From: Eledone cirrhosa
Taxonomy: Eukaryota
Length of the DNA stretch: 64,000 nucleotides
Assembly (NCBI GenBank): GCA_964016885.1
Contig: OZ024750.1
Span: 35,712,001-35,776,000 of the forward strand
Direction of reading: 5' to 3'
Position numbers and translations under genes: made by a program. The notes beneath the pieces were generated by a model. It saw only the letters and a list, made by a program, of their open reading frames with translations. It ran no database searches and had not been told where the DNA came from. Every line of letters starts with the position of its first letter. Within the stretch, counting starts at the first letter, position 1. Below, in pieces: positions 4,934 through 62,965 of the stretch.

Positions 4934-4973
4934 ACAGTATAATATAGTAACAGTATAATATAGTAACAGTATA
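4934..4973 (-). repeat. Inverted satellite segment #1 (40 bp, about 2.5 reverse ACT monomers)
   Basis: ACAGTATAATATAGTAACAGTATAATATAGTAACAGTATA is the reverse complement of ACT-type monomers. Preceded by a GTTCCT variant monomer. Confidence 0.97.
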
Positions 4974-6321
4974 TTATACAGTTACTATATTATGTAGTTA
5001 CTATATTATACAGTTACTATATTATACAGTTACTATATTATGTAGTTACTATATTATACAGTTACTATATTATACTGTTACTATATTATACAGTTACTAT
5101 ATTATACTGTTACTATATTAAACTGTTACTATATTATACAGTTACTATATTATACTGTTACTATATTATACTGTAACTATATTATGTAGTTACTATATTA
5201 TACAGTTACTATATTATACAGTTACTATATTATACAGTTACTATATTATACAGTTACTATATTATACAGTTACTATATTATACTGTTACTATATTATACA
5301 GTTACTATATTATACTGTTACTATATTATACAGTTACTATATTATACTGTTACTATATTATACTGTTACTATATTATACATTTACTATATTATACTGTTA
5401 CTATATTATACAGTTACTATATTATACAGTTACTATATTATACTGTTACTATATTATACTGTTACTATATTATACAGTTACTATATTATACTGTTACTAT
5501 ATTATACTGTTACTATATTATACTGTTACTATATTATACAGTTACTATATTATACTGTTACTATATTATACTGTTACTATATTATACTGTTACTATATTA
5601 TGTAGTTACTATATTATACAGTTACTATATTATGTAGTTACTATATTATACTGTTACTATATTATACAGTTACTATATTATACAGTTACTATATTATACA
5701 GTTACTATATTATACAGTTACTATATTATACTGTTACTATATTATACAGTTACTATATTATACTGTTACTATATTATACAGTTACTATATTATACTGTTA
5801 CTATATTATACTGTTACTATATTATACATTTACTATATTATACTGTTACTATATTATACAGTTACTATATTATACAGTTACTATATTATACTGTTACTAT
5901 ATTATACTGTTACTATATTATACAGTTACTATATTATACTGTTACTATATTATACAGTTACTATATTATACTGTTACTATATTATACTGTTACTATATTA
6001 TACTGTTACTATATTATACAGTTACTATATTATACTGTTACTATATTATACTGTTACTATATTATACTGTTACTATATTATGTAGTTACTATATTATACA
6101 GTTACTATATTATGTAGTTACTATATTATACTGTTAATATATTATGAAGTTACTATATTATACAGTTACTATATTATACACTTACTATATTATACTGTTA
6201 CTATATTATACAGTTACTATATTATACTGTTACTATATTATGTAGTTACTATATTATACTGTTACTATATTATGTAGTTACTATATTATACTGTTACTAT
6301 ATTATACTGTTACTATATTAT

Positions 6322-6361
6322 ACAGTATAATATAGTAACAGTATAATATAGTAACAGTATA
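6322..6361 (-). repeat. Inverted satellite segment #2 (40 bp), right arm of a perfect 75-bp palindrome at 6287-6361
   Basis: Same inverted 40-mer, with two intact ACT monomers upstream. Followed by CTA-variant monomers. Confidence 0.97.
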
Positions 6362-9300
6362 TTATACAGTTACTATATTATCTAGTTACTATATTATACA
6401 GTTACTATATTATCTAGTTACTATATTATACAGTTACTATATTATACAGTTACTATATTATGTAGTTACTATATTATACAGTTACTATATTATACTGTTA
6501 CTATATTATACAGTTACTATATTATACTGTTACTATATTAAACTGTTACTATATTATACTGTTACTATATTATACTGTTACTATATTATACTGTTACTAT
6601 ATTATGTAGTTACTATATTATACAGTTACTATATTATACAGTTACTATATTATACAGTTACTATATTATACAGTTACTATATTATACAGTTACTATATTA
6701 TACTGTTACTATATTATACAGTTACTATATTATACTGTTACTATATTATACAGTTACTATATTATACTGTTACTATATTATGCTGTTACTATATTATACA
6801 TTTACTATATTATACTGTTACTATATTATACAGTTACTATATTATACTGTTACTATATTATACTGTTACTATATTATACTGTTACTATATTATACTGTTA
6901 CTATATTATACTGTTACTATATTATACTGTTACTATATTATACTGTTACTATATTATGTAGTTACTATATTATACTGTTACTATATTATGTAGTTACTAT
7001 ATTATACTGTTACTATATTATACTGTTACTATATTATACTGTTACTATATTATACAGTTACTATAATATGTAGTTACTATATTATAGAGTTACTTTATTA
7101 TTCAGTTACTATATTATACAGTTACTATATTATACTGTTACTATATTATGTAGTTACTATATTATACTGTTACTATATTATACTGTTACTATATTATACT
7201 GTTACTATGTTATACAGTTACTATATTATGTAGTTACTATATTATACAGTTACTATATTATGTAGTTACTATATTATGTAGTTACTATATTATACTGTTA
7301 CTATATTATGTAGTTACTATATTATACTGTTACTATATTATACAGTTACTATATTATACTGTTACTATATTATACTGTTACTATATTATGTAGTTACTAT
7401 ATTATACTGTTACTATATTACGTAGTTACTATATTATACTGTTACTATATTATACTGTTACTATATTATACTGTTACTCTATTATACAGTTACTATAATA
7501 TGTAGTTACTATATTATAAAGTTACTATATTATACAGTTACTATATTATACAGTTACTATATTATACTGTTACTATATTATACTGTTACTATATTATACA
7601 GTTACTATATTATGTAGTTACTATATTATACAGTTACTATATTATGTAGTTACTATATTATACTGTTACTATATTATACAGTTACTATATTATGTAGTTA
7701 CTATATTATACTGTTACTATATTATACTGTTACTATATTATACTGTTACTATATTATACAGTTACTATATTATGTAGTTACTATATTATACAGTTACTAT
7801 ATTATGTAGTTACTATATTATGTAGTTACTATATTATACTGTTACTATATTATGTAGTTACTATATTATACTGTTACTATATTATACAGTTACTATATTA
7901 TGTAGTTACTATATTATACTGTTACTATATTATACTGTTACTATATTATACAGTTACTATATTATGTATTTACTATATTATACAGTTACTATATTATACA
8001 GTTACTATATTATACTGTTACTATATTATACAGTTACTATATTATACTGTTACTATGTTATACAGTTACTATATTATACTGTTACTATATTATACAGTTA
8101 CTATATTATACTGTTACTATATTATACAGTTACTATATTATAATGTTACTATATTATACTGTTACTATATTATACTGTTACTATGTTATACAGTTACTAT
8201 ATTATACTGTTACTATATTATACAGTTACTATATTATACTGTTACTATATTATGTAGTTACTATATTATACTGTTACTATATTATACTGTTACTATATTA
8301 TACTGTTACTATATTATACAGTTACTATATTATACTGTTACTATATTATACTGTTACTATATTATACTGTTACTATGTTATACAGTTACTATATTATACT
8401 GTTACTATATTATACAGTTACTATATTATACTGTTACTGTATTATGTAGTTACTATATTATACTGTTACTATATTATACTGTTACTATATTATGTAGTTA
8501 CTATATTATACTGTTACTATATTATGTAGTTACTATATTATACAGTTACTATATTATACAGTTACTATATTATACAGTTACTATATTATACTGTTACTAT
8601 ATTATACAGTTACTATATTATACTGTTACTATATTATACAGTTACTATATTATACTGTTACTATATTATACTGTTACTATATTATACATTTACTATATTA
8701 TACTGTTACTATATTATACAGTTACTATATTATACAGTTACTATATTATACTGTTACTATATTATACTGTTACTATATTATACAGTTACTATATTATACT
8801 GTTATTATATTATACAGTTACTATATTATACTGTTACTATATTATACTGTTACTATATTATACTGTTACTATATTATACAGTTACTATATTATACTGTTA
8901 CTATATTATGTAGTTACTATATTATACTGTTACTATATTATGTAGTTACTATATTATACTCTTACTATATTATGTAGTTACTATATTATACAGTTACTAT
9001 ATTATACAGTTACTATATTATACTGTTACTATATTATACTGTTACTATATTATGTAGTTACTATATTATACAGTTACTATATTATGTAGTTACTATATTA
9101 TACTGTTACTATATTATGTAGTTACTATATTATACAGTTACTATATTATACAGTTACTATATTATACTGTTACTATATTATACAGTTACTATATTATACT
9201 GTTACTATATTATGTAGTTACTATATTATACTGTTACTATATTATGTAGTTACTATATTATACAGTTACTATATTATACAGTTACTATATTATACAGTTA

Positions 9301-9837
9301 CTATATTATACAGTTACTATATTATACTGTTACTATATTATACAGTTACTATATTATACTGTTACTATATTATACTGTCACTATATTATACTGTTACTAT
9401 ATTATGTAGTTACTATATTATACAGTTACTATACTATACTGTTACTATATTATACAGTTACTATATTATACAGTTACTATATTATACTGTTACTATATTA
9501 TACAGTTACTATATTATACAGTTACTATATTATACTGTTACTATATTATACTGTTACTATATTATACTGTTACTATATTATACAGTTACTATATTATACT
9601 GTTACTATATTATACTGTTACTATATTATGTATTTACTATATTATACAGTTACTATATTATACTGTTACTATATTATACAGATACTATATTATACAGTTA
9701 TTATATTATACTGTTACTATATTATACAGTTACTATATTATGTAGTTACTATATTATACTGTTACTATATTATACTGTTACTATATTATACAGTTACTAT
9801 ATTATACTGTTACTATATTATACAGTTCCTATATTAT

Positions 9838-9877
9838 ACAGTATAATATAGTAACAGTATAATATAGTAACAGTATA
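9838..9877 (-). repeat. Inverted satellite segment #3 (40 bp)
   Basis: Same inverted 40-mer, GTTCCT upstream. Confidence 0.97.
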
Positions 9878-10905
9878 TTATACAGTTACTATATTATGTA
9901 GTTACTATATTATACAGTTACTATATTATACAGTTACTATATTATGTAGTTACTATATTATACAGTTACTATATTATACTGTTACTATATTATACAGTTA
10001 CTATATTATACTGTTACTATATTAAACTGTTACTATATTATACAGTTACTATATTATACTGTTACTATATTATACTGTAACTATATTATGTAGTTACTAT
10101 ATTATACAGTTACTATATTATACAGTTACTATATTATACAGTTACTATATTATACAGTTACTATATTATACAGTTACTATATTATACTGTTACTATATTA
10201 TACAGTTACTATATTATACTGTTACTATATTATACAGTTACTATATTATACTGTTACTATATTATACTGTTACTATATTATACATTTACTATATTATACT
10301 GTTACTATATTATACAGTTACTATATTATACAGTTACTATATTATACTGTTACTATATTATACTGTTACTATATTATACAGTTACTATATTATACTGTTA
10401 CTATATTATACAGTTACTATATTATACTGTTACTATATTATACTGTTACTATATTATACTGTTACTATATTATACAGTTACTATATTATACTGTTACTAT
10501 ATTATGTAGTTACTATATTATACTGTTACTATTTTATGTAGTTACTATATTATACTGTTACTATATTATGTAGTTACTATATTATGCAGTTACTATATTA
10601 TACAGTTACTATATTATACTGTTACTATATTATACTGTTACTATATTATACTGTTACTATATTATGTAGTTACTATATTATACAGTTACTATATTATGTA
10701 GTTACTATATTATACTGTTAATATATTATGTAGTTACTATATTATACAGTTACTATATTATACACTTACTATATTATACTGTTACTATATTATACAGTTA
10801 CTATATTATACTGTTACTATATTATGTAGTTACTATATTATACTGTTACTATATTATGTAGTTACTATATTATACTGTTACTATGTTATACTGTTACTAT
10901 ATTAT

Positions 10906-10945
10906 ACAGTATAATATAGTAACAGTATAATATAGTAACAGTATA
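10906..10945 (-). repeat. Inverted satellite segment #4 (40 bp)
   Basis: Same inverted 40-mer, CTATGTTA variant upstream, CTA variants downstream. Confidence 0.97.
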
Positions 10946-13900
10946 TTATACAGTTACTATATTATCTAGTTACTATATTATACAGTTACTATATTATCTA
11001 GTTACTATATTATACAGTTACTATATTATACAGTTACTATATTATGTAGTTACTATATTATACAGTTACTATATTATACTGTTACTATATTATACAGTTA
11101 CTATATTATACTGTTACTATATTAAACTGTTACTATATTATACTGTTACTATATTATACTGTTACTATATTATACTGTTACTATATTATGTAGTTACTAT
11201 ATTATACAGTTACTATATTATACAGTTACTATATTATACAGTTACTATATTATACAGTTACTATATTATACAGTTACTATATTATACTGTTACTATATTA
11301 TACAGTTACTATATTATACTGTTACTATATTATACAGTTACTATATTATACTGTTACTATATTATGCTGTTACTATATTATACATTTACTATATTATACT
11401 GTTACTATATTATACAGTTACTATATTATACTGTTACTATGTTATACAGTTACTATGTTATACTGTTACTATATTATACAGTTACTATATTATACTGTTA
11501 CTATATTATACAGTTACTATATTATACTGTTACTATATTATAATGTTACTATATTATGTAGTTACTATATTATACTGTTACTATATTATGTAGTTACTAT
11601 ATTATACAGTTACTATATTATACAGTTACTATATTATACAGTTACTATATTATACTGTTACTATATTATACAGTTACTATATTATACTGTTACTATATTA
11701 TACAGTTACTATATTATACTGTTACTATATTATACTGTTACTATATTATACATTTACTATATTATACTGTTACTATATTATACAGTTACTATATTATACA
11801 GTTACTATATTATACTGTTACTATATTATACAGTTACTATATTATACTGTTACTATATTATGTAGTTACTATATTATACTGTTACTATATTATGTAGTTA
11901 CTATATTATACTATTACTATATTATGTAGTTACTATATTATACAGTTACTATATTATACAGTTACTATATTATACTGTTACTATATTATACTGTTACTAT
12001 ATTATACTGTTACTATATTATGTAGTTACTATATTATACAGTTACTATATTATACTGTTACTATATTATGTAGTTACTATATTATACTGTTACTATATTA
12101 TGTAGTTACTATATTATACAGTTACTATATTATACAGTTACTATATTATACAGTTACTATATTATACAGTTACTATATTATACTGTTACTATATTATACA
12201 GTTACTATATTATACTGTTACTATATTATACTGTTACTATATTATACTGTTACTATATTATACTGTTACTATATTATGTAGTTACTATATTATACTGTTA
12301 CTATATTATGTAGTTACTATATTATACTGTTACTATATTATACTGTTACTATATTATACTGTTACTATATTATACAGTTACTATAATATGTAGTTACTAT
12401 ATTATAGAGTTACTATATTATTCAGTTACTATATTATACAGTTACTATATTATACTGTTACTATATTATGTAGTTACTATATTATACTGTTACTATATTA
12501 TACTGTTACTATATTATACTGATACTATGTTATACAGTTACTATATTATGTAGTTACTATATTATACAGTTACTATATTCTGTAGTTACTATATTATGTA
12601 GTTACTATATTATACTGTTACTATATTATGTAGTTACTATATTATACTGTTACTATATTATACAGTTACTATATTATACTGTTACTATATTATACTGTTA
12701 CTATATTATGTAGTTACTATATTATACTGTTACTATATTACGTAGTTACTATATTATACTGTTACTATATTATACTGTTACTATATTATACTGTTACTCT
12801 ATTATACAGTTACTATAATATGTAGTTACTATATTATAAAGTTACTATATTATACAGTTACTATATTATACAGTTACTATATTATACTGTTACTATATTA
12901 TACTGTTACTATATTATACAGTTACTATATTATGTAGTTACTATATTATACAGTTACTATATTATGTAGTTACTATATTATACTGTTACTATATTATACA
13001 GTTACTATATTATGTAGTTACTATATTATACTGTTACTATATTATACTGTTACTATATTATACTGTTACTATATTATACAGTTACTATATTATGTAGTTA
13101 CTATATTATACAGTTACTATATTATGTAGTTACTATATTATGTAGTTACTATATTATACTGTTACTATATTATGTAGTTACTATATTATACTGTTACTAT
13201 ATTATACAGTTACTATATTATGTAGTTACTATATTATACTGTTACTATATTATACTGTTACTATATTATACAGTTACTATATTATGTAGTTACTATATTA
13301 TACAGTTACTATATTATACAGTTACTATATTATACTGTTACTATATTATACAGTTACTATATTATACTGTTACTATGTTATACAGTTACTATATTATACT
13401 GTTACTATATTATACAGTTACTATATTATACTGTTACTATATTATACAGTTACTATATTATAATGTTACTATATTATACTGTTACTATATTATACTGTTA
13501 CTATGTTATACAGTTACTATATTATACTGTTACTATATTATACAGTTACTATATTATACTGTTACTATATTATGTAGTTACTATATTATACTGTTACTAT
13601 ATTATACTGTTACTATATTATACTGTTACTATATTATACAGTTACTATATTATACTGTTACTATATTATACTGTTACTATATTATACTGTTACTATGTTA
13701 TACAGTTACTATATTATACTGTTACTATATTATACAGTTACTATATTATACTGTTACTGTATTATGTAGTTACTATATTATACTGTTACTATATTATACT
13801 GTTACTATATTATGTAGTTACTATATTATACTGTTACTATATTATGTAGTTACTATATTATACAGTTACTATATTATACAGTTACTATATTATACAGTTA

Positions 13901-15205
13901 CTATATTATACTGTTACTATATTATACAGTTACTATATTATACTGTTACTATATTATACAGTTACTATATTATACTGTTACTATATTATACTGTTACTAT
14001 ATTATACATTTACTATATTATACTGTTACTATATTATACAGTTACTATATTATACAGTTACTATATTATACTGTTACTATATTATACTGTTACTATATTA
14101 TACAGTTACTATATTATACTGTTATTATATTATACAGTTACTATATTATACTGTTACTATATTATACTGTTACTATATTATACTGTTACTATATTATACA
14201 GTTACTATATTATACTGTTACTATATTATGTAGTTACTATATTATACTGTTACTATATTATGTAGTTACTATATTATACTCTTACTATATTATGTAGTTA
14301 CTATATTATACAGTTACTATATTATACAGTTACTATATTATACTGTTACTATATTATACTGTTACTATATTATGTAGTTACTATATTATACAGTTACTAT
14401 ATTATGTAGTTACTATATTATACTGTTACTATATTATGTAGTTACTATATTATACAGTTACTATATTATACAGTTACTATATTATACTGTTACTATATTA
14501 TACAGTTACTATATTATACTGTTACTATATTATGTAGTTACTATATTATACTGTTACTATATTATGTAGTTACTATATTATACAGTTACTATATTATACA
14601 GTTACTATATTATACAGTTACTATATTATACAGTTACTATATTATACTGTTACTATATTATACAGTTACTATATTATACTGTTACTATATTATACTGTCA
14701 CTATATTATACTGTTACTATATTATGTAGTTACTATATTATACAGTTACTATACTATACTGTTACTATATTATACAGTTACTATATTATACAGTTACTAT
14801 ATTATACTGTTACTATATTATACAGTTACTATATTATACAGTTACTATATTATACTGTTACTATATTATACTGTTACTATATTATACTGTTACTATATTA
14901 TACAGTTACTATATTATACTGTTACTATATTATACTGTTACTATATTATACTGTTACTATATTATGTAGTTACTATATTATACTGTTACTATATTATGTA
15001 TTTACTATATTATACAGTTACTATATTATACTGTTACTATATTATACAGATACTATATTATACAGTTATTATATTATACTGTTACTATATTATACAGTTA
15101 CTATATTATGTAGTTACTATATTATACTGTTACTATATTATACTGTTACTATATTATACAGTTACTATATTATACTGTTACTATATTATACAGTTCCTAT
15201 ATTAT

Positions 15206-15229
15206 ACAGTATAATATAGTAACAGTATA
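15206..15229 (-). repeat. Inverted satellite segment #5 (24 bp, one monomer shorter)
   Basis: ACAGTATAATATAGTAACAGTATA, GTTCCT upstream. Paralogue of #1 at offset 10,272. Confidence 0.97.
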
Positions 15230-16577
15230 TTATACAGTTACTATATTATGTAGTTACTATATTATACAGTTACTATATTATACAGTTACTATATTATGTA
15301 GTTACTATATTATACAGTTACTATATTATACTGTTACTATATTATACAGTTACTATATTATACTGTTACTATATTAAACTGTTACTATATTATACAGTTA
15401 CTATATTATACTGTTACTATATTATACTGTAACTATATTATGTAGTTACTATATTATACAGTTACTATATTATACAGTTACTATATTATACAGTTACTAT
15501 ATTATACAGTTACTATATTATACAGTTACTATATTATACTGTTACTATATTATACAGTTACTATATTATACTGTTACTATATTATACAGTTACTATATTA
15601 TACTGTTACTATATTATACTGTTACTATATTATACATTTACTATATTATACTGTTACTATATTATACAGTTACTATATTATACAGTTACTATATTATACT
15701 GTTACTATATTATACTGTTACTATATTATACAGTTACTATATTATACTGTTACTATATTATACTGTTACTATATTATACTGTTACTATATTATACAGTTA
15801 CTATATTATACTGTTACTATATTATACTGTTACTATATTATACTGTTACTATATTATGTAGTTACTATATTATACAGTTACTATATTATGTAGTTACTAT
15901 ATTATACTGTTACTATATTATACAGTTACTATATTATACAGTTACTATATTATACAGTTACTATATTATACAGTTACTATATTATACTGTTACTATATTA
16001 TACAGTTACTATATTATACTGTTACTATATTATACAGTTACTATATTATACTGTTACTATATTATACTGTTACTATATTATACATTTACTATATTATACT
16101 GTTACTATATTATACAGTTACTATATTATACAGTTACTATATTATACTGTTACTATATTATACTGTTACTATATTATACAGTTACTATATTATACTGTTA
16201 CTATATTATACAGTTACTATATTATACTGTTACTATATTATACTGTTACTATATTATACTGTTACTATATTATACAGTTACTATATTATACTGTTACTAT
16301 ATTATACTGTTACTATATTATACTGTTACTATATTATGTAGTTACTATATTATACAGTTACTATATTATGTAGTTACTATATTATACTGTTAATATATTA
16401 TGAAGTTACTATATTATACAGTTACTATATTATACACTTACTATATTATACTGTTACTATATTATACAGTTACTATATTATACTGTTACTATATTATGTA
16501 GTTACTATATTATACTGTTACTATATTATGTAGTTACTATATTATACTGTTACTATATTATACTGTTACTATATTAT

Positions 16578-16617
16578 ACAGTATAATATAGTAACAGTAT
16601 AATATAGTAACAGTATA
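16578..16617 (-). repeat. Inverted satellite segment #6 (40 bp), right arm of a perfect 75-bp palindrome at 16543-16617
   Basis: Paralogue of #2 at offset 10,256. Confidence 0.97.
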
Positions 16618-19600
16618 TTATACAGTTACTATATTATCTAGTTACTATATTATACAGTTACTATATTATCTAGTTACTATATTATACAGTTACTATATTA
16701 TACAGTTACTATATTATGTAGTTACTATATTATACAGTTACTATATTATACTGTTACTATATTATACAGTTACTATATTATACTGTTACTATATTAAACT
16801 GTTACTATATTATACTGTTACTATATTATACTGTTACTATATTATACTGTTACTATATTATGTAGTTACTATATTATACAGTTACTATATTATACAGTTA
16901 CTATATTATACAGTTACTATATTATACAGTTACTATATTATACAGTTACTATATTATACTGTTACTATATTATACAGTTACTATATTATACTGTTACTAT
17001 ATTATACAGTTACTATATTATACTGTTACTATATTATGCTGTTACTATATTATACATTTACTATATTATACTGTTACTATATTATACAGTTACTATATTA
17101 TACTGTTACTATATTATACTGTTACTATATTATACTGTTACTATATTATACTGTTACTATATTATACTGTTACTATATTATACTGTTACTATATTATACT
17201 GTTACTATATTATGTAGTTACTATATTATACTGTTACTATATTATGTAGTTACTATATTATACTGTTACTATATTATACTGTTACTATATTATACTGTTA
17301 CTATATTATACAGTTACTATAATATGTAGTTACTATATTATAGAGTTACTATATTATTCAGTTACTATATTATACAGTTACTATATTATACTGTTACTAT
17401 ATTATGTAGTTACTATATTATACTGTTACTATATTATACTGTTACTATATTATACTGTTACTATGTTATACAGTTACTATATTATGTAGTTACTATATTA
17501 TACAGTTACTATATTATGTAGTTACTATATTATGTAGTTACTATATTATACTGTTACTATATTATGTAGTTACTATATTATACTGTTACTATATTATACA
17601 GTTACTATATTATACTGTTACTATATTATACTGTTACTATATTATGTAGTTACTATATTATACTGTTACTATATTACGTAGTTACTATATTATACTGTTA
17701 CTATATTATACTGTTACTATATTATACTGTTACTCTATTATACAGTTACTATAATATGTAGTTACTATATTATAAAGTTACTATATTATACAGTTACTAT
17801 ATTATACAGTTACTATATTATACTGTTACTATATTATACTGTTACTATATTATACAGTTACTATATTATGTAGTTACTATATTATACAGTTACTATATTA
17901 TGTAGTTACTATATTATACTGTTACTATATTATACAGTTACTATATTATGTAGTTACTATATTATACTGTTACTATATTATACTGTTACTATATTATACT
18001 GTTACTATATTATACAGTTACTATATTATGTAGTTACTATATTATACAGTTACTATATTATGTAGTTACTATATTATGTAGTTACTATATTATACTGTTA
18101 CTATATTATGTAGTTACTATATTATACTGTTACTATATTATACAGTTACTATATTATGTAGTTACTATATTATACTGTTACTATATTATACTGTTACTAT
18201 ATTATACAGTTACTATATTATGTATTTACTATATTATACAGTTACTATATTATACAGTTACTATATTATACTGTTACTATATTATACAGTTACTATATTA
18301 TACTGTTACTATGTTATACAGTTACTATATTATACTGTTACTATATTATACAGTTACTATATTATACTGTTACTATATTATACAGTTACTATATTATAAT
18401 GTTACTATATTATACTGTTACTATATTATACTGTTACTATGTTATACAGTTACTATATTATACTGTTACTATATTATACAGTTACTATATTATACTGTTA
18501 CTATATTATGTAGTTACTATATTATACTGTTACTATATTATACTGTTACTATATTATACTGTTACTATATTATACAGTTACTATATTATACTGTTACTAT
18601 ATTATACTGTTACTATATTATACTGTTACTATGTTATACAGTTACTATATTATACTGTTACTATATTATACAGTTACTATATTATACTGTTACTGTATTA
18701 TGTAGTTACTATATTATACTGTTACTATATTATACTGTTACTATATTATGTAGTTACTATATTATACTGTTACTATATTATGTAGTTACTATATTATACA
18801 GTTACTATATTATACAGTTACTATATTATACAGTTACTATATTATACTGTTACTATATTATACAGTTACTATATTATACTGTTACTATATTATACAGTTA
18901 CTATATTATACTGTTACTATATTATACTGTTACTATATTATACATTTACTATATTATACTGTTACTATATTATACAGTTACTATATTATACAGTTACTAT
19001 ATTATACTGTTACTATATTATACTGTTACTATATTATACAGTTACTATATTATACTGTTATTATATTATACAGTTACTATATTATACTGTTACTATATTA
19101 TACTGTTACTATATTATACTGTTACTATATTATACAGTTACTATATTATACTGTTACTATATTATGTAGTTACTATATTATACTGTTACTATATTATGTA
19201 GTTACTATATTATACTCTTACTATATTATGTAGTTACTATATTATACAGTTACTATATTATACAGTTACTATATTATACTGTTACTATATTATACTGTTA
19301 CTATATTATGTAGTTACTATATTATACAGTTACTATATTATGTAGTTACTATATTATACTGTTACTATATTATGTAGTTACTATATTATACAGTTACTAT
19401 ATTATACAGTTACTATATTATACTGTTACTATATTATACAGTTACTATATTATACTGTTACTATATTATGTAGTTACTATATTATACTGTTACTATATTA
19501 TGTAGTTACTATATTATACAGTTACTATATTATACAGTTACTATATTATACAGTTACTATATTATACAGTTACTATATTATACTGTTACTATATTATACA

Positions 19601-20093: not shown

Positions 20094-20133
20094 ACAGTAT
20101 AATATAGTAACAGTATAATATAGTAACAGTATA
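20094..20133 (-). repeat. Inverted satellite segment #7 (40 bp)
   Basis: Paralogue of #3 at offset 10,256, GTTCCT upstream. Confidence 0.97.
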
Positions 20134-49300: not shown

Positions 49301-50981
49301 TAAAGTTACTATATTATACAGTTACTATATTATACTGTTACTATATTATACTGTTACTATATTATACTGTTACTATATTATGTAGCTACTATATTATACT
49401 GTTACTATATTATGTAGTTACTATATTATACTGTTACTATATTATGTAGTTACTATATTATACTGTTACTATATTATGTAGTTACTATATTATAAAGTTA
49501 CTATATTATACAGTTACTATATTATACTGTTACTATATTATACTGTTACTATATTATACTGTTACTATATTATGTAGTTACTATATTATACAGTTACTAT
49601 ATTATACAGTTACTATATTATACTGTTACTATATTATACAGTTACTATATTATACTGTTACTATATTATGTAGTTACTATATTATACTGTTACTATATTA
49701 TGTAGTTACTATATTATACAGTTACTATATTATACAGTTACTATATTATACAGTTACTATATTATACAGTTACTATATTATACTGTTACTATATTATACA
49801 GTTACTATATTATACTATTAATATATTATACTGTTACTATATTATACTGTTACTATATTATGTAGTTACTATATTATGTAGTTACTATATTATACAGTTA
49901 CTATATTATACTGTTATTATATTACACAGTTACTATATTATACAGTTACTATATTATACTGTTACTATATTATACAGTTACTATATTATACAGTTACTAT
50001 ATTATACAGTTACTATATTATACAGTTACTATATTATGCTGTTACTATATTATACAGTTACTATATTATACAGTTACTATATTATACTGTTACTATATTA
50101 TGTAGTTACTATATTATACAGTTACTATATTATACTGTTACTATATTATACTGTTACTATATTATACAGTTACTATATTATACTGTTACTATATTATACT
50201 GTTACTATATTATACTGTTACTATATTATACTGTTACTATATTATGTAGTTACTATATTATACTGTTACTATATTATGTAGTTACTTTATTATACTGTTA
50301 CTATATTATACTGTTACTATATTATACTGTTACTATATTATACAGTTACTATATTATGTAGTTACTATATTATACAGTTACTATATTATACAGTTACTAT
50401 ATTATACAGTTACTATATTATACTGCTACTATATTATGTAGTTACTATATTATACTGTTACTATATTATACTGTTACTATATTATACTGTTACTATATTA
50501 TACAGTTAGTATATTATGTAGTTACTATATTATACTATTACTATATTATACAGTTACTATATTATGTAGTTACTATATTATACTGTTACTATATTATACT
50601 GTTAATATATTATACAGTTACTATATTATGTAGTTACTATATTATACAGTTACTATATTATACAGTTACTATATTATACAGTTACTATATTATACAGTTA
50701 CTATATTATACAGTTACTATATTATGTAGTTACTATATTATACAGTTACTATATTATGTAGTTACTATATTATACAGTTACTATATTATACTGTTACTAT
50801 ATTATACAGTTTCTATATTATACTGTTACTATATTATACTATTACTATGTTATACAGTTACTATATTATACTGTTACTATATTATGTAGTTACTATATTA
50901 TACTGTTACTATATTATACTGTTACTATATTATACAGTTACTATATTATACTGTTACTATATTATACAGTTACTATATTAT

Positions 50982-51021
50982 ACAGCATAATATAGTAACA
51001 GTATAATATAGTAACAGTATA
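50982..51021 (-). repeat. Inverted satellite segment #17 (40 bp, ACAGCATAAT variant)
   Basis: Paralogue of #16 at offset 4,636. Confidence 0.97.
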
Positions 51022-54000
51022 TTATACAGTTACTATATTATGTAGTTACTATATTATACAGTTACTATATTATACAGTTACTATATTATGTAGTTACTAT
51101 ATTATACAGTTACTATATTATACTGTTACTATATTATACAGTTACTATATTATACTGTTACTATATTAAACTGTTACTATATTATACTGTTACTATATTA
51201 TACTGTTACTATATTATACTGTTACTATATTATGTAGTTACTATATTATACAGTTACTATATTATACAGTTACTATATTATACAGTTACTATATTATACA
51301 GTTACTATATTATACTGTTACTATATTATACTGTTACTATATTATACTGTTACTATATTATACAGTTACTATATTATACAGTTACTATATTATACTGTTA
51401 CTATATTATACTGTTACTATATTATACAGTTACTATATTATACAGTTATTATATTATACTGTTACTATATTATACAGTTACTATATTATACAGTTACTAT
51501 ATTATACAGTTACTATATTATACTGTTACTATATTATACAGTTACTATATTATACTGTTACTATATTATACTGTTACTATATTATACAGTTACTATATTA
51601 TACTGTTACTATATTATACAGTTACTATATTATACAGTTACTATAATATACAGTTACTATGTTATACTGTTACTAATTTATACAGTTACTATATTATACT
51701 GTTACTATATTATAGATTTCCTATATTATACTGTTACTATATTATACAGTTACTATATTATACTGTTACTATATTATACTGTTACTATATTATACAGTTA
51801 CTATATTATACTGTTACTATATTATACAGTTACTATATTATACTGTTACTATATTATACAGTTACTATATTATACTGTTACTATATTATACTGTTACTAT
51901 ATTATACTGTTACTATATTATACAGTTACTATATTATACTGTTACTATATTATGTAGTTACTATATTATACTGTTACTATATTATGTAGTTACTATATTA
52001 TACTGTTACTATATTATGTAGTTACTATATTATAAAGTTACTATATTATACAGTTACTATATTATACTGTTACTATATTATACTGTTACTATATTATACT
52101 GTTACTATATTATGTAGTTACTATATTATACTGTTACTATATTATGTAGTTACTATATTATACTGTTACTATATTATGTAGTTACTATATTATACTGTTA
52201 CTATATTATGTAGTTACTATATTATAAAGTTACTATATTATACAGTTACTATATTATACTGTTACTATATTATACTGTTACTATATTATACTGTTACTAT
52301 ATTATGTAGTTACTATATTATACAGTTACTATATTATACAGTTACTATATTATACTGTTACTATATTATACAGTTACTATATTATACTGTTACTATATTA
52401 TGTAGTTACTATATTATACTGTTACTATATTATGTAGTTACTATATTGTACAGTTACTATATTATACAGTTACTATATTATACAGTTACTATATTATACT
52501 GTTACTATATTATACAGTTACTATATTATACTATTAATATATTATACTGTTACTATATTATACTGTTACTATATTATGTAGTTACTATATTATGTAGTTA
52601 CTATATTATACAGTTACTATATTATACTGTTATTATATTACACAGTTACTATATTATACAGTTACTATATTATACTGTTACTATATTATACAGTTACTAT
52701 ATCATACAGTTACTATATTATACAGTTACTATATTATACAGTTACTATATTATGCTGTTACTATATTATACAGTTACTATATTATACAGTTACTATATTA
52801 TACTGTTACTATATTATGTAGTTACTATATTATACAGTTACTATATTATACTGTTACTATATTATACTGTTACTATATTATACAGTTACTATATTATACT
52901 GTTACTATATTATACTGTTACTATATTATACTGTTACTATATTATACTGTTACTATATTATGTAGTTACTATATTATACTGTTACTATATTATGTAGTTA
53001 CTTTATTATACTGTTACTATATTATACTGTTACTATATTATACTGTTACTATATTATACAGTTACTATATTATGTAGTTACTATATTATACAGTTACTAT
53101 ATTATACAGTTACTATATTATACAGTTACTATATTATACTGTTACTATATTATGTAGTTACTATATTATACTGTTACTATATTATACTGTTACTATATTA
53201 TACTGTTACTATATTATACAGTTAGTATATTATGTAGTTACTATATTATACTATTACTATATTATACAGTTACTATATTATGTAGTTACTATATTATACT
53301 GTTACTATATTATACTGTTAATATATTATACAGTTACTATATTATGTAGTTACTATATTATACAGTTACTATATTATACAGTTACTATATTATACAGTTA
53401 CTATATTATACAGTTACTATATTATACAGTTACTATATTATGTAGTTACTATATTATACAGTTACTATATTATGTAGTTACTATATTATACAGTTACTAT
53501 ATTATACTGTTACTATATTATACAGTTACTATATTATACAGTTACTATATTATACTGTTACTATATTATGTAGTTACTATATTATACTGTTACTATATTA
53601 TACTGTTACTATATTATACTGTTACTATGTTATACTGTTACTATATTATACGGTTACTATATTATACAGTTACTATATTATACTGTTACTATATTATACA
53701 GTTACTATATTATACTGTTACTATATTATACAGTTACTATATTATACTGTTACTATAGTATGTAGTTACTATATTATACTGTTACTATATTATACAGTTA
53801 CTATATTATACTGTTACTATATTATACTGTTACTATATTATACTGTTACTATATTATACAGTTACTATATTATACTGTTACTATATTATGTAGTTACTAT
53901 ATTATACTGTTACTATATTATGTAGTTACTATATTATACTGTTACTATATTATGTAGTTACTATATTATAAAGTTACTATATTATACAGTTACTATATTA

Positions 54001-56657
54001 TACTGTTACTATATTATACTGTTACTATATTATACTGTTACTATATTATGTAGCTACTATATTATACTGTTACTATATTATGTAGTTACTATATTATACT
54101 GTTACTATATTATGTAGTTACTATATTATACTGTTACTATATTATGTAGTTACTATATTATAAAGTTACTATATTATACAGTTACTATATTATACTGTTA
54201 CTATATTATACTGTTACTATATTATACTGTTACTATATTATGTAGTTACTATATTATACAGTTACTATATTATACAGTTACTATATTATACTGTTACTAT
54301 ATTATACAGTTACTATATTATACTGTTACTATATTATGTAGTTACTATATTATACTGTTACTATATTATGTAGTTACTATATTATACAGTTACTATATTA
54401 TACAGTTACTATATTATACAGTTACTATATTATACAGTTACTATATTATACTGTTACTATATTATACAGTTACTATATTATACTATTAATATATTATACT
54501 GTTACTATATTATACTGTTACTATATTATGTAGTTACTATATTATGTAGTTACTATATTATACAGTTACTATATTATACTGTTATTATATTACACAGTTA
54601 CTATATTATACAGTTACTATATTATACTGTTACTATATTATACAGTTACTATATTATACAGTTACTATATTATGCTGTTACTATATTATACAGTTACTAT
54701 ATTATGTAGTTACTATATTATACAGTTACTATATTATACTGTTACTATATTATACTGTTACTATATTATACAGTTACTATATTATACTGTTACTATATTA
54801 TACTGTTACTATATTATACTGTTACTATATTATACTGTTACTATATTATGTAGTTACTATATTATACTGTTACTATATTATGTAGTTACTTTATTATACT
54901 GTTACTAAATTATACTGTTACTATATTATACTGTTACTATATTATACAGTTACTATATTATGTAGTTACTATATTATACAGTTACTATATTATACAGTTA
55001 CTATATTATACAGTTACTATATTATACTGTTACTATATTATGTAGTTACTATATTATACTGTTACTATATTATGTAGTTACTATATTATACTGTTACTAT
55101 ATTATGTAGTTACTATATTATACAGTTACTATATTATACAGTTACTATATTATACAGTTACTATATTATACAGTTACTATATTATACTGTTACTATATTA
55201 TACAGTTACTATATTATACTATTAATATATTATACTGTTACTATATTATACTGTTACTATATTATGTAGTTACTATATTATGTAGTTACTATATTATACA
55301 GTTACTATATTATACTGTTATTATATTACACAGTTACTATATTATACAGTTACTATATTATAGTGTTACTATATTATACAGTTACTATATTATACAGTTA
55401 CTATATTATACAGTTACTATATTATACAGTTACTATATTATGCTGTTACTATATTATACAGTTACTATATTATACAGTTACTATATTATACTGTTACTAT
55501 ATTATGTAGTTACTATATTATACAGTTACTATATTATACTGTTACTATATTATACTGTTACTATATTATACAGTTACTATATTATACTGTTACTATATTA
55601 TACTGTTACTATATTATACTGTTACTATATTATACTGTTACTATATTATGTAGTTACTATATTATACTGTTACTATATTATGTAGTTACTTTATTATACT
55701 GTTACTATATTATACTGTTACTATATTATACTGTTACTATATTATACAGTTACTATATTATGTAGTTACTATATTATACAGTTACTATATTATACAGTTA
55801 CTATATTATACAGTTACTATATTATACTGTTACTATATTATGTAGTTACTATATTATACTGTTACTATATTATACTGTTACTATATTATACTGTTACTAT
55901 ATTATACAGTTAGTATATTATGTAGTTACTATATTATACTATTACTATATTATACAGTTACTATATTATGTAGTTACTATATTATACTGTTACTATATTA
56001 TACTGTTAATATATTATACAGTTACTATATTATGTAGTTACTATATTATACAGTTACTATATTATACAGTTACTATATTATACAGTTACTATATTATACA
56101 GTTACTATATTATACAGTTACTATATTATGTAGTTACTATATTATACAGTTACTATATTATGTAGTTACTATATTATACAGTTACTATATTATACTGTTA
56201 CTATATTATACAGTTACTATATTATACAGTTACTATATTATACTGTTACTATATTATGTAGTTACTATATTATACTGTTACTATATTATACTGTTACTAT
56301 ATTATACTGTTACTATGTTATACTGTTACTATATTATACGGTTACTATATTATACAGTTACTATATTATACTTTTACTATATTATACAGTTACTATATTA
56401 TACTGTTACTATATTATACATTTACTATATTATACTGTTACTATAGTATGTAGTTACTATATTATACTGTTACTATATTATACTGTTACTATATTTTACT
56501 GTTACTATATTATACTGTTACTATGTTATACAGTTACTATATTATACTGTTACTATATTATGTAGTTACTATATTATACTGTTACTATATTATACTGTTA
56601 CTATATTATACAGTTACTATATTATACTGTTACTATATTATACAGTTACTATATTAT

Positions 56658-56697
56658 ACAGTATAATATAGTAACAGTATAATATAGTAACAGTATA
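56658..56697 (-). repeat. Inverted satellite segment #18 (40 bp)
   Basis: Same inverted 40-mer. Confidence 0.97.
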
Positions 56698-57069
56698 TTA
56701 TACAGTTACTATATTATGTAGTTACTATATTATACAGTTACTATATTATACAGTTACTATATTATGTAGTTACTATATTATACAGTTACTATATTATACT
56801 GTTACTATATTATACAGTTACTATATTATACTGTTACTATATTAAACTGTTACCATATTATACTGTTACTATATTATACTGTTACTATATTATACTGTTA
56901 CTATATTATGTAGATACTATATTATACAGTTACTATATTATACAGTTACTATATTATACAGTTACTATATTATACAGTTACTATATTGTACTGTTACTAT
57001 ATTATACTGTTACTATATTATAATGTTACTATATTATACAGTTACTATATTATACAGTTACTATTTTAT

Positions 57070-60000
57070 ACTGTTACTATATTATACTGTTACTATATTA
57101 TACAGTTACTATATTATACAGTTACTATATTATTCTGTTACTATATTATACAGTTACTATATTATACAGTTACTATATTATACAGTTACTATATTATACT
57201 GTTACTATATTATACAGTTACTATATTATACTGTTACTATATAATACTGTTACTATATTATACAGTTACTATATTATACTGTTACTATATTATACAGTAA
57301 CTATATTATACAGTTACTATATTATACAGTTACTATATTATACTGTTACTATATTATACAGTTACTATATTATACTGTTACTATATTATACAGTTACTAC
57401 ATTATACTGTTACTATATCATACAGTTACTATATTATACTGTTACTATATTATACTGTTACTATATTATACAGTTACTATATTATACTGTTACTATATTA
57501 TACAGTTACTATATTATACAGTTACTATATTATACAGTTACTATATTATACTGTTACTATATTATACAGTTACTATATTATACTGTTACTATATTATACT
57601 GTTACTATATTATACAGTTACTATATTATACAGTTACTATATTATACAGTTACTATATTATACTGTTACTATATTATACTGTTACTATATTATACAGTTA
57701 CTATATTATACAGTTACTATATTATACTGTTACTATATTATAATGTTACTATATTATACTGTTACTATATTATACTGTTATTATATTATACAGTTACTAT
57801 ATTATACTGTTACTATATTATACTGTTACTACATTATACTGTTACTATATCATACAGTTACTATATTATACTGTTACTATATTATACTGTTACTATATTT
57901 TACAGTTACTATATTATACTGTTACTATATTATACAGTTACTATATTATACAGTTACTATATTATACAGTTACTATATTATACTGTTACTATATTATACA
58001 GTTACTATATTATACTGTTACTATATTATACTGTTACTATATTATACAGTTACTATATTATACAGTTACTATATTATACAGTTACTATATTATACTGTTA
58101 CTATATTATACTGTTACTATATTATACTGTTACTATATTATACTGTTACTATATTATGTAGTTACTATATTATACTGTTACTATATTATGTAGTTACTTT
58201 ATTATACTGTTACTATATTATACTGTTACTATATTATACTGTTACTATATTATACAGTTACTATATTATGTAGTTACTATATTATACAGTTACTATATTA
58301 TACAGTTACTATATTATACAGTTACTATATTATACTGTTACTATATTATGTAGTTACTATATTATACTGTTACTATATTATACTGTTACTATATTATACA
58401 GTTAGTATATTATGTAGTTACTATATTATACTATTACTATATTATACAGTTACTATATTATGTAGTTACTATATTATACTGTTACTATATTATACTGTTA
58501 ATATATTATACAGTTACTATATTATGTAGTTACTATATTATACAGTTACTATATTATACAGTTACTATATTATACAGTTACTATATTATACAGTTACTAT
58601 ATTATACAGTTACTATATTATGTAGTTACTATATTATACAGTTACTATATTATGTAGTTACTATATTATACAGTTACTATATTATACAGTTACTATATTA
58701 TACAGTTACTATATTATACAGTTACTATATTATACTGTTACTATATTATGTAGTTATTATATTATACAGTTACTATGTTATACTGTTACTATATTATACA
58801 GTTACTATATTATACTGTTACTATATTATAGATTTCCTATATTATACTGTTACTATATTATACAGTTACTATATTATACTGTTACTATATTATACTGTTA
58901 CTATATTATACAGTTACTATATTATACTGTTACTATATTATACAGTTACTATATTATACTGTTACTATATTATACAGTTACTATATTATACTGTTACTAT
59001 ATTATACTGTTACTATATTATACTGTTACTATATTATACAGTTACTATATTATACTGTTACTATATTATGTAGTTACTATATTATACTGTTACTATATTA
59101 TGTAGTTACTATATTATACTGTTACTATATTATGTAGTTACTATATTATCAAGTTACTATATTATACAGTTACTATATTATACTGTTACTATATTATACT
59201 GTTACTATATTATACTGTTACTATATTATGTAGTTACTATATTATACTGTTACTATATTATGTAGTTACTATATTATACTGTTACTATATTATGTAGTTA
59301 CTATATTATACTGTTACTATATTATGTAGTTACTATATTATAAAGTTACTATATTATACAGTTACTATATTATACTGTTACTATATTATACTGTTACTAT
59401 ATTATACTGTTACTATATTATGTAGTTACTATATTATACAGTTACTATATTATACTGTTACTATATTATACTGTTACTATATTATACAGTTACTATATTA
59501 TACAGTTACTATATTATTCTGTTACTATATTATACAGTTACTATATTATACAGTTACTATATTATACAGTTACTATATTATACTGTTACTATATTATACA
59601 GTTACTATATTATACTGTTACTATATAATACTGTTACTATATTATACAGTTACTATATTATACTGTTACTATATTATACAGTAACTATATTATACAGTTA
59701 CTATATTATACAGTTACTATATTATACTGTTACTATATTATACAGTTACTATATTATACTGTTACTATATTATACAGTTACTACATTATACTGTTACTAT
59801 ATCATACAGTTACTATATTATACTGTTACTATATTATACTGTTACTATATTATACAGTTACTATATTATACTGTTACTATATTATACTGTTACTATATTA
59901 TACAGTTACTATATTATACAGTTACTATATTATACAGTTACTATATTATACTGTTACTATATTATACAGTTACTATATTATACTGTTACTATATTATACT

Positions 60001-61830
60001 GTTACTATATTATACAGTTACTATATTATACAGTTACTATATTATACAGTTACTATATTATACTGTTACTATATTATACTGTTACTATATTATACAGTTA
60101 CTATATTATACAGTTACTATATTATACTGTTACTATATTATAATGTTACTATATTATACTGTTACTATATTATACTGTTATTATATTATACAGTTACTAT
60201 ATTATACTGTTACTATATTATACTGTTACTACATTATACTGTTACTATATCATACAGTTACTATATTATACTGTTACTATATTATACTGTTACTATATTT
60301 TACAGTTACTATATTATACTGTTACTATATTATACAGTTACTATATTATACAGTTACTATATTATACAGTTACTATATTATACTGTTACTATATTATACA
60401 GTTACTATATTATACTGTTACTATATTATACTGTTACTATATTATACAGTTACTATATTATACAGTTACTATATTATACAGTTACTATATTATACTGTTA
60501 CTATATTATACTGTTACTATATTATACTGTTACTATATTATACTGTTACTATATTATGTAGTTACTATATTATACTGTTACTATATTATGTAGTTACTTT
60601 ATTATACTGTTACTATATTATACTGTTACTATATTATACTGTTACTATATTATACAGTTACTATATTATGTAGTTACTATATTATACAGTTACTATATTA
60701 TACTGTTACTATATTATACAGTTACTATATTATACTGTTACTATATTATGTAGTTACTATATTATACTGTTACTATATTATACTGTTACTATATTATACT
60801 GTTACTATATTATACAGTTAGTATATTATGTAGTTACTATATTATACTATTACTATATTATACAGTTACTATATTATGTAGTTACTATATTATACTGTTA
60901 CTATATTATACAGTTACTATATTATACAGTTACTATATTATACAGTTACTATATTATACAGTTACTATATTATGTAGTTACTATATTATACAGTTACTAT
61001 ATTATGTAGTTACTATATTATACAGTTACTATATTATACTGTTACTATATTATACAGTTACTATAATATACAGTTACTATATTATACTGTTACTATATTA
61101 TGTAGTTATTTTATTATACAGTTACTATGTTATACTGTTACTATATTATACAGTTACTATATTATACTGTTACTATATTATAGATTTCCTATATTATACT
61201 GTTACTATATTATACAGTTACTATATTATACTGTTACTATATTATACTGTTACTATATTATACAGTTACTACATTATACTGTTACTATATCATACAGTTA
61301 CTATATTATACTGTTACTATATTATACTGTTACTATATTATACAGTTACTATATTATACTGTTACTATATTATACAGTTACTATATTATACTGTTACTAT
61401 ATTATACTGTTACTATATTATACTGTTACTATATTATACAGTTACTATATTATACTGTTACTATATTATGTAGTTACTATATTATACTGTTACTATATTA
61501 TGTAGTTACTATATTATACTGTTACTATATTATGTAGTTACTATATTATCAAGTTACTATATTATACAGTTACTATATTATACTGTTACTATATTATACT
61601 GTTACTATATTATACTGTTACTATATTATGTAGTTACTATATTATACTGTTACTATATTATGTAGTTACTATATTATACTGTTACTATATTATGTAGTTA
61701 CTATATTATACTGTTACTATATTATGTAGTTACTATATTATAAAGTTACTATATTATACATTTACTATATTATACTGTTACTATATTATACTGTTACTAT
61801 ATTATACTGTTACTATATTATGTAGTTACT
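57070..61830 (+). repeat. Tandem duplication of about 2,400 bp (150 monomers, no inversion inside)
   Basis: Pseudo-ORFs 57743/60143 and the TATCAAG variant at 59150/61550. Confidence 0.85.
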
Positions 61831-62925
61831 ATATTATACAGTTACTATATTATACAGTTACTATATTATACTGTTACTATATTATACAGTTACTATATTA
61901 TACTGTTACTATATTATGTAGTTACTATATTATACTGTTACTATATTATGTAGTTACTTTATTATACTGTTACTATATTATACTGTTACTATATTATACT
62001 GTTACTATATTATACAGTTACTATATTATGTAGTTACTATATTATACAGTTACTATATTATACAGTTACTATATTATACAGTTACTATATTATACTGTTA
62101 CTATATTATGTAGTTACTATATTATACTGTTACTATATTATACTGTTACTGTATTATACTGTTACTATATTATACAGTTAGTATATTATGTAGTTACTAT
62201 ATTATACTATTACTATATTATACAGTTACTATATTATGTAGTTACTATATTATACTGTTACTATATTATACTGTTAATATATTATACAGTTACTATATTA
62301 TGTAGTTACTATATTATACAGTTACTATATTATACAGTTACTATATTATACAGTTACTATATTATACAGTTACTATATTATACAGTTACTATATTATGTA
62401 GTTACTATATTATACAGTTACTATATTATGTAGTTACTATATTATACAGTTACTATATTATACTGTTACTATATTATACAGTTACTATATTATACAGTTA
62501 CTATATTATACTGTTACTATATTATGTAGTTACTATATTATACTGTTACTATATTATACTGTTACTATATTATACTGTTACTATGTTATACTGTTACTAT
62601 ATTATACGGTTACTATATTATACAGTTACTATATTATACTTTTACTATATTATACAGTTACTATATTATACTGTTACTATATTATACAGTTACTATATTA
62701 TACTGTTACTATAGTATGTAGTTACTATATTATACTGTTACTATATTATACTGTTACTATATTTTACTGTTACTATATTATACTGTTACTATGTTATACA
62801 GTTACTATATTATACTGTTACTATATTATGTAGTTACTATATTATACTGTTACTATATTATACTGTTACTATATTATACAGTTACTATATTATACTGTTA
62901 CTATATTATACAGTTACTATATTAT

Positions 62926-62965
62926 ACAGTATAATATAGTAACAGTATAATATAGTAACAGTATA
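62926..62965 (-). repeat. Inverted satellite segment #19 (40 bp)
   Basis: Paralogue of #18 at offset 6,268. Confidence 0.97.

What the first reader, a model, noticed from the sequence alone, without database searches (positions are those of the whole stretch)
4934..62965. 19 micro-inversions punctuate the satellite and all appear to descend from one fold-back/template-switch event
Seen: 19 segments in reverse orientation with the same junctions. The left junction is ...TATAC-A-GTATA..., with ACAGT shared between a forward ACA monomer and a reverse ACT monomer. The right junction returns to forward orientation through a shared TATA. All 19 are followed by a related allele string (typically GTA,ACA,ACA,GTA,ACA,ACT,ACA,ACT) and the rare TTAAACT marker about 130-180 bp downstream. 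Established: short inverted duplications bounded by microhomology are the signature of replication template switching. Inference: a single event was later spread by array duplication, making the inversion a landmark of an ancestral higher-order unit rather than a recurrent or programmed switch.
Basis: partly seen in the sequence, partly recalled or inferred. Interest (0 to 1): 0.72.

Follow-up and report, generated by a model that had tools for sequence, protein, structure and literature searches.

The report
One inversion copied along a satellite
A 205-kb run of 16-base repeats holds 24 copies of one small back-to-front patch (about 40 bases), all with related neighbours, so the patch likely arose once from a copying strand switch and was likely multiplied passively as the array duplicated: a good lineage marker, but ordinary.

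Summary
The window has 19 reversed tracts, and the whole single-locus 205-kb array has 24; the junction patterns occur nowhere else in the assembly. All 24 have the rare TTAAACT monomer 8-11 monomers downstream, against 2.6% of monomer slots by chance, and upstream and downstream flank distances are correlated (rho 0.68). Single origin followed by duplication is well supported. Three corrections: (1) the junctions sit on the monomer's best strand-symmetric microhomologies, so identical junctions alone are weak evidence; the flanks carry the case. (2) Each tract shifts the repeat register by 12 mod 16, which points to a templated insertion, not an in-place flip; fold-back cannot be told from an inter-strand switch, and no uninverted ancestor was found. 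(3) There is no regular higher-order unit, only nested duplications of variable size. The tract behaves like a neutral marker: typical copy number, no extra conservation, no breakpoint hotspot. Public reads gave no support: no listed contig spans the right junction, which is inconclusive. The scan noted the same pattern in other satellites of this genome (unreviewed AI notes). Known kind; low interest.

The parts
1..64000 (+). 16-bp satellite, monomer GTTACTATATTAT plus ACT, ACA or GTA; part of a 205-kb array (G000:C10, about 35,703,800-35,908,900)
4934..4973 (-). inverted tract, 2 monomers; clade with TTCC variant in the junction monomer
6322..6361 (-). inverted tract, 2 monomers; CTA clade; full 37-bp mirror of the left flank
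9838..9877 (-). inverted tract, 2 monomers; TTCC clade
10906..10945 (-). inverted tract, 2 monomers; CTA clade
15206..15229 (-). inverted tract, 1 monomer; duplicate of the 4934 tract with one reversed monomer fewer
16578..16617 (-). inverted tract, 2 monomers; duplicate of the 6322 tract
20094..20133 (-). inverted tract, 2 monomers; duplicate of the 9838 tract
21162..21201 (-). inverted tract, 2 monomers; duplicate of the 10906 tract
23318..23341 (-). inverted tract, 1 monomer; CTA clade (a second, separate loss)
27650..27705 (-). inverted tract, 3 monomers; TTCC clade
28782..28821 (-). inverted tract, 2 monomers
31146..31185 (-). inverted tract, 2 monomers
35158..35197 (-). inverted tract, 2 monomers, T>C at the left junction
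39298..39337 (-). inverted tract, 2 monomers
42766..42805 (-). inverted tract, 2 monomers, T>C at the left junction
46346..46385 (-). inverted tract, 2 monomers, T>C at the left junction
50982..51021 (-). inverted tract, 2 monomers, T>C at the left junction
56658..56697 (-). inverted tract, 2 monomers; ACAGT shared at 56658-56662, TATA shared at 56694-56697
62926..62965 (-). inverted tract, 2 monomers
5118..63100 (+). linked TTAAACT marker, one per tract: 5118, 6538, 10022, 11122, 15374, 16794, 20278, 21378, 23486, 27850, 28966, 31330, 35342, 39482, 42950, 46530, 51166, 56842, 63094 (the one at 770 follows a tract just left of the window)
1129..21641 (+). recent 10,272-bp tandem duplication (1129-11385 and 11401-21641) that turned 4 tracts into 8; over 628 tokens compared the copies differ by 2 substitutions and one reversed monomer

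Best explanation
The 24 tracts share junctions and flanking alleles and are likely copies of one ancestral 40-bp inverted insertion, likely made by a microhomology-primed strand switch during DNA synthesis and likely multiplied passively by kilobase-scale duplications of the array. Inferred steps: a growing 3' end finishing in ACAGT paired with an ACTGT (an ACT monomer junction) in the opposite sense; it copied about 31 new bases across three consecutive ACT monomers; it returned to the forward strand at the TATA-T-TATA near-palindrome. Because the two switches use different symmetry axes of the monomer, the forward register moves by 12 mod 16 (shown). Whether the template was the new strand itself or the sister strand, and whether this happened at a fork or during break repair, the sequence cannot say. 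Later duplications copied the tract with its flanks; one T>C change, two monomer losses and one gain followed. No function is indicated.
For: Confined to one array: the right-junction pattern has 24 matches in the 3.0-Gb assembly, all in C10:35.71-35.84 Mb; reversed monomers number 43 in the genome and 43 in the fetched region. TTAAACT lies 8-11 monomers downstream of 24 of 24 tracts; only 27 such monomers exist among 12,654 and 2.6% of slots have one within 12. The string gaagatat (collapsed alleles) occurs 22 times, always beside a tract. In a copying model 24 of 24 tracts take another tract as partner (the scoring favours tract-to-tract matches, but the matched segments run 8-635 tokens with 0-8 mismatches). 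Upstream and downstream distances correlate, Mantel rho 0.68, p 1e-4; mean downstream distance 5.8 against 17.0 for random anchors. Variants inside the tract follow flank clades: the four T>C copies group together, with one T copy (28785) among them. All 43 exact reversed monomers are of the ACT type, which makes up 40% of the array. ACAGT is the longest exact strand-symmetric run of the 16 registers (5 nt); the right junction register matches 8 of 9. Register shift is 12 in 24 of 24. Neutral behaviour: 24 copies is mid-range among rare alleles; flank sharing ranks 7th of 35 markers; 1 substitution in the tract against 2.7 expected, p 0.25; no excess of large breakpoints nearby, p 0.55-0.93. 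A SINE-like insertion was multiplied to 4 copies the same way.
Against: No uninverted version of the flanking haplotype was found, so the switch points and template are inferred, not read from an ancestor. No public read or contig supports the junctions: in three contig sets of one sample (X2-X4) no record at 100% covers both sides of the right junction, although ordinary words there stand at about 2.1-2.4 times their assembly count in X2, which would predict roughly 50-fold depth if that sample carried the same array. The tool warns that contigs drop rare variants and that a hole proves nothing, and the sample may be another individual. Three RAD-seq runs laid 0 reads (no test). Upstream similarity fades fast (13.3 against 17.0 at 20 monomers), the largest up/down asymmetry of 35 markers. 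Tract length changed 3 times against 0.5-1.1 expected (p 0.016-0.10).
Confidence: 0.8

Rival explanations
1. One in-place inversion by breakage and rejoining or by recombination between short inverted repeats, with a small deletion, and no templated synthesis; then the same passive spread.
For: A 60-bp ancestral segment holding three ACT monomers could be replaced by the 40-bp reversed piece (worked out by hand from the monomer positions). Single-origin evidence is the same.
Against: A clean flip keeps the register; it shifts by 12 mod 16 in 24 of 24, so a flip needs extra losses at both ends. Both junctions sit on microhomologies, which one switch-and-return event explains at once.
Confidence: 0.07
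2. The tract is a functional landmark (hairpin or cruciform site) kept by selection, as proposed for conserved inversion sites in Tribolium satellites.
For: Single strands around three tracts fold far better than shuffles (z -3.8 to -8.3) while a tract-free control does not (z +1.5). PMC13081366 and PMC12581902 (passages) raise this idea for their arrays.
Against: Folding follows trivially from any inversion in a tandem array. Copy number, flank sharing and substitution load match neutral point variants. Spacing is irregular; a 51-kb stretch and the last 65 kb have no tract. One locus only.
Confidence: 0.05
3. Assembly or sequencing artefact, such as polymerase fold-back in long reads.
For: No listed public contig spans the right junction. 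The array is hard to assemble and has one 200-N gap.
Against: An artefact would not carry nested shared variants, always sit beside one rare marker, or fall at matching places in duplicated segments. An assembly error could at most change the copy count of recent duplicates.
Confidence: 0.05
4. Recurrent or programmed switching at a favoured microhomology pair, with each tract formed separately.
For: The junctions use the best microhomologies, and strand switches of this motif family occurred at least twice more.
Against: Independent events would share the marker with probability about 0.026 to the 24th power. The two other switches have different junctions. All reversed monomers are of one allele.
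Confidence: 0.02

Closest known systems
Short-range template-switch mutations, four-point model (Loytynoja and Goldman 2017, PMC5453318; passages)
   Same: A short fragment copied in reverse complement from nearby sequence between two switch points, with a net length change and new inverted repeats.
   Different: Those events are single-copy and typed against an ancestral allele; here no ancestor was found, so the type cannot be assigned, and the product was amplified 24-fold. That paper reports no evidence for intra-strand events, which weakens a strict fold-back reading.
Snap-back SD-MMEJ (PMC5728401; passages) and fold-back inverted insertions at breaks (PMC11724301; abstract and section list)
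   Same: Short inverted primer repeat (3-6 nt favoured there, 5 nt here), limited synthesis (about 5-34 bp in yeast, about 31 new bases here), rejoining at a microhomology.
   Different: A break and the enzymes cannot be shown from sequence. The tract mirrors the adjacent flank fully in only 3 of 24 copies.
Tribolium macro-dyad symmetries with conserved inversion sites (T. madens PMC13081366, T. freemani PMC12581902; passages)
   Same: Many near-identical inversion junctions within satellite arrays, with no foreign sequence at the junction.
   Different: There the inverted subarrays are kilobases long, number in thousands and lie on many chromosomes; here 24-56 bp, 24 copies, one locus, and neutral by three measures.
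Strand switches in human HSat3B5 and beta-satellite arrays (10.1101/2021.07.12.452052; passages); block-type HintCl-18 arrays of Hieracium alpinum (PMC11566620; passages)
   Same: Short-monomer satellites with many orientation changes; microinversion by template switching is named as a possible cause in the Hieracium paper.
   Different: The passages seen do not trace the switches to one event; the Hieracium blocks are about 650 bp with linkers.
Satellite turnover by unit-preserving tandem duplications and deletions (Arabidopsis CEN178, 10.1101/2025.06.02.657473; passages)
   Same: Kilobase duplications in whole repeat units multiply any variant they contain.
   Different: The word 'inversion' does not occur in that main text; the monomer is 178 bp and centromeric.

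Membership tests
Short-range template-switch mutation (four-point model) | Inserted fragment is the reverse complement of nearby sequence | tested here: met
   Tract equals the reverse complement of three consecutive ACT monomer ends; such a run follows TTAAACT in the downstream flank of most copies
Short-range template-switch mutation (four-point model) | Switch points 1-4 placed on an ancestral allele, giving an event type | tested here: inconclusive
   No uninverted haplotype found: 22 of 22 gaagatat strings lie beside a tract
Short-range template-switch mutation (four-point model) | Arises during replication | not testable with these tools
   Sequence does not record the process
Fold-back or snap-back templated insertion | Short inverted primer repeat at entry and microhomology at exit | tested here: met
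   ACAGT/ACTGT, 5 nt; TATA, 8 of 9 in register
Fold-back or snap-back templated insertion | Insert mirrors the sequence just upstream of the junction | tested here: inconclusive
   Full mirror in 3 of 24, 22 bp in 2, 15 bp or less in 19; a longer loop or one later change would also fit; the tree is unrooted
Fold-back or snap-back templated insertion | Formed at a double-strand break by end-joining polymerases | not testable with these tools
   Needs experiment
In-place inversion between inverted repeats | Repeat register and length kept across the event | tested here: not met
   Shift of 12 mod 16 in 24 of 24
Tribolium-type macro-dyad satellite | Kilobase-scale inverted subarrays | tested here: not met
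   Tracts are 24-56 bp; no larger reversed block in the 205-kb array
Tribolium-type macro-dyad satellite | Conserved inversion junctions in many copies | tested here: met
   24 of 24 right junctions identical; 20 of 24 left junctions identical at ACAGT
Tribolium-type macro-dyad satellite | Present on many chromosomes, (peri)centromeric | tested here: not met
   One locus on C10; centromere position could not be tested
Regular higher-order repeat | Fixed multi-monomer period repeated in tandem | tested here: not met
   Tract spacing 1,068-51,213 bp; duplication offsets 832-37,745 bp; median copied segment 36 tokens

The most novel reading that the evidence does not exclude
The reversed tract is a locally unstable hairpin seed: because it can pair with any neighbouring forward monomer in many registers, it gains and loses whole monomers several times faster than the forward array and erodes its upstream flank, so a single 40-bp inversion acts as a heritable mutator inside a satellite and could later seed larger inversions. 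Hints: 3 length changes against 0.5-1.1 expected; the only indel in a 10.3-kb recent duplicate is in a tract; the largest flank asymmetry of 35 markers. Against: no breakpoint excess, flank indel rate not raised, no larger inversion in the array.
Probability: 0.12. Interest if true: 0.5.

Novelty: new member of a known kind. Interest (0 to 1): 0.22.

Why it matters
It is a clean worked case that many identical inversion junctions in a satellite can come from one mutation and passive duplication. The array supplies its own neutral yardsticks (point variants of similar copy number and a four-copy SINE-like insertion). That is a useful caution where conserved inversion sites have been read as a sign of function (PMC13081366, PMC12581902). 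The tract is also a good marker for ordering duplications in this array. It shows no new mechanism.

Tried and rejected
Read support: one run search gave 7 runs. Three RAD-seq runs laid 0 reads and X1 laid 0 contigs: no test. X2-X4 hold the satellite but no listed record spans a junction; 32 of 40 and 52 of 76 records were not shown: inconclusive. Breakpoint hotspot: large copying-model jumps are not enriched within 3, 5, 10 or 20 tokens of a tract (p 0.55-0.93). An apparent excess of small indels within 10 tokens (3 against 0.4, p 0.007) vanished in a marker-anchored test: 5 gaps in 556 tokens beside tracts, against 167 in 9,838 beside 28 other markers (Fisher p 0.15 on gaps against substitutions). 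Conservation of the tract: not seen (p 0.25). Search for an uninverted ancestor: none. The idea that the three main alleles are themselves strand flips (ACAGT/ACTGT, TACA/TGTA): dropped, because single-step intermediates exist (ATA 44 copies, GCA 28). The lead from earlier notes that such tracts anchor larger inversions: none in this array. Earlier-findings look-ups by place and by sequence returned nothing. Paper searches listed no description of this satellite; I read listings, not all papers, and no supplements.

Full report
What the window is. All 64 kb are one tandem array of a 16-bp monomer, 19% G+C throughout. The genome is 3.0 Gb and the window lies at G000:C10:35,712,001-35,776,000. 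I fetched 100 kb to the left and 300 kb to the right. The array runs from about 35,703,800 to 35,908,900, about 205 kb with one 200-N gap. It parses into 12,654 monomers, 24 inverted tracts and 20 irregular tokens; the three main alleles end in ACT (5,115), ACA (4,132) and GTA (1,677). The satellite is single-locus: a dimer pattern has 6,658 forward and 19 reversed matches in the genome and the same counts in the fetched region. A SINE-like element in the array looks to me like an octopus repeat (recalled, untested), and earlier scan notes say 'likely octopus'.

The observation. Nineteen reversed tracts lie in the window at the stated range. Sixteen are 40 bp, two 24 bp and one 56 bp. The right junction is identical in all; four share a T>C change at the left junction. 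The right-junction pattern has 24 matches in the genome, none on the other strand, all in this array. A left-junction pattern has 19 forward matches, all at known tracts; the 5 missing are the copies with a TTCC variant in the junction monomer. All 43 exact reversed monomers in the genome belong to the tracts and all are of the ACT type.

One origin or many. Identical junctions do not settle this. Comparing the monomer with its reverse complement in all 16 registers, the left junction uses the longest exact run (ACAGT, 5 nt) and the right junction a register with 8 of 9 matches, so repeated events might reuse them. The flanks do settle it. TTAAACT monomers number 27; 24 of them lie 8-11 monomers after a tract, one per tract, whereas 2.6% of slots have one within 12. 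The collapsed string gaagatat occurs 22 times, always beside a tract. Mean distance between downstream flanks (20 monomers) is 5.8 against 17.0 for random anchors; upstream 13.3 against 17.0, and 2.8 against 5.5 over the first 7 monomers; the two sides correlate (rho 0.68, p 1e-4). In a copying model each of the 24 tracts takes another tract as partner. One 10,272-bp duplication alone turned four tracts into eight; its copies differ by 2 substitutions and one reversed monomer over 628 tokens. Two other strand switches in this motif family have other junctions: a degenerate hairpin at the array's left edge and a single reversed block of about 0.35 kb in a related 29-bp satellite on C4.

How it likely formed. 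Every tract shifts the forward register by 12 mod 16. A clean in-place flip would keep the register. Entry and exit at two different symmetry axes, six bases apart, give exactly this shift. The simplest account (inferred) is one switch and return during synthesis: a 3' end ending ACAGT pairs with an ACTGT in the opposite sense, copies about 31 new bases through ACT monomers, and returns at TATA. This is the four-point template switch (PMC5453318, passages). It equally fits snap-back synthesis at a break (PMC5728401, passages; PMC11724301, abstract). The apparent one-base-loop palindrome at the left junction need not be the real loop: in a tandem array any loop of whole monomers gives the same text. 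The tract mirrors its left flank fully in 3 of 24 copies and for 22 bp in 2 more, all in the CTA clade; the other 19 have an ACA monomer where the mirror needs ACT. The clustering places the CTA clade apart but has no root, and no uninverted haplotype was found. So fold-back is possible, not shown.

Passenger or landmark. Twenty-four copies is mid-range among rare alleles, whose counts run from 100 down to 1. Flank sharing ranks 7th among 35 markers of 14-37 copies. The tract has 1 substitution against 2.7 expected (p 0.25). Large breakpoints are not enriched nearby, and flank indels are not raised. There is no fixed period: spacing is 1,068-51,213 bp and duplication offsets are 0.8-38 kb. A SINE-like insertion with a 16-bp target duplication was carried to four copies in the same array, the same fate for a plainly unique event. 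Single strands at three tracts fold well (z -3.8 to -8.3; control +1.5), which any inversion in a tandem array would do.

Results against my reading. Public data gave no support for the junctions. Three RAD-seq runs laid no reads. In three contig sets of one sample the only record covering 56697-56700 at 100% is an ordinary forward piece (depth table and pieces), although common words in X2 stand at about 2.1-2.4 times their assembly counts, so about 50-fold depth was expected if that sample had this array. Contigs drop rare variants, records are filtered, and the sample may be another individual, so this is inconclusive, but an artefact is excluded only by internal evidence. Tract length changed three times against 0.5-1.1 expected (p 0.016 or 0.10 by baseline), and upstream similarity fades faster than downstream. 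These hints are kept as the novel case.

Comparison and novelty. Repeated, conserved inversion junctions in satellites are described in Tribolium (PMC13081366, PMC12581902; passages), human HSat3B5 and beta satellite (10.1101/2021.07.12.452052, passages) and Hieracium (PMC11566620, passages). This case is much smaller and single-locus and fails the macro-dyad test. Six paper searches listed nothing on this satellite; supplements were not read. The scan's own unreviewed notes report amplified single-origin inversions in several other satellites of this genome; I did not check those arrays and take them as leads only. Verdict: real, most likely one template-switch insertion spread by duplication; a new member of a known kind; interest 0.22.

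Noticed in passing
G000:C10 35,885,319; 35,892,450; 35,901,405; 35,904,296 (outside the window): Four near-identical copies of a roughly 190-bp SINE-like insertion inside the array, flanked by a 16-bp target duplication (one monomer length); the same element is dispersed in both flanks. Likely one insertion multiplied by duplication.
   Followed up: partly
L010:1777-1850 (array left edge): Degenerate seed with a short reversed piece forming a hairpin of about 12-bp arms around TAG, a junction different from the 24 tracts.
   Followed up: partly
L041:5125 to L042:5723 (G000:C4:235,460,125-235,470,723): A related 29-bp satellite of 10.6 kb shares a 15-base word with this monomer and has one unamplified reversed block of about 0.35 kb with its own TATA junctions.
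   Followed up: partly
L001-L007 (G000:C10:35,612,001-35,678,012): A 51-bp satellite of at least 66 kb (94% match) lies 26 kb left of the array; being a multiple of three it gives stop-free frames of up to 5,385 codons, likely not genes.
   Followed up: no
G000:C10:35,685,235-35,688,690 and 35,966,677-35,970,165: Two open frames of about 1,150 codons that begin like the endonuclease domain of LINE ORF2 (recalled likeness, not searched), each preceded by a shorter frame; possibly intact non-LTR retrotransposons on either side of the array.
   Followed up: no
G000:C10:35,909,358-35,910,009: A degenerate 8/40-bp minisatellite related to the monomer just beyond the right end, possibly a relic of the seed.
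   Followed up: no
window 35162, 42770, 46350, 50986: The T>C change makes the first reversed monomer read as the reverse complement of the GCT allele (43 forward copies); either a plain transition or a conversion from that allele.
   Followed up: no
G000:C10:35,861,277-35,861,476: A 200-N gap; the allele strings beyond it differ and carry no tract, so the true array length and tract count may be larger.
   Followed up: no
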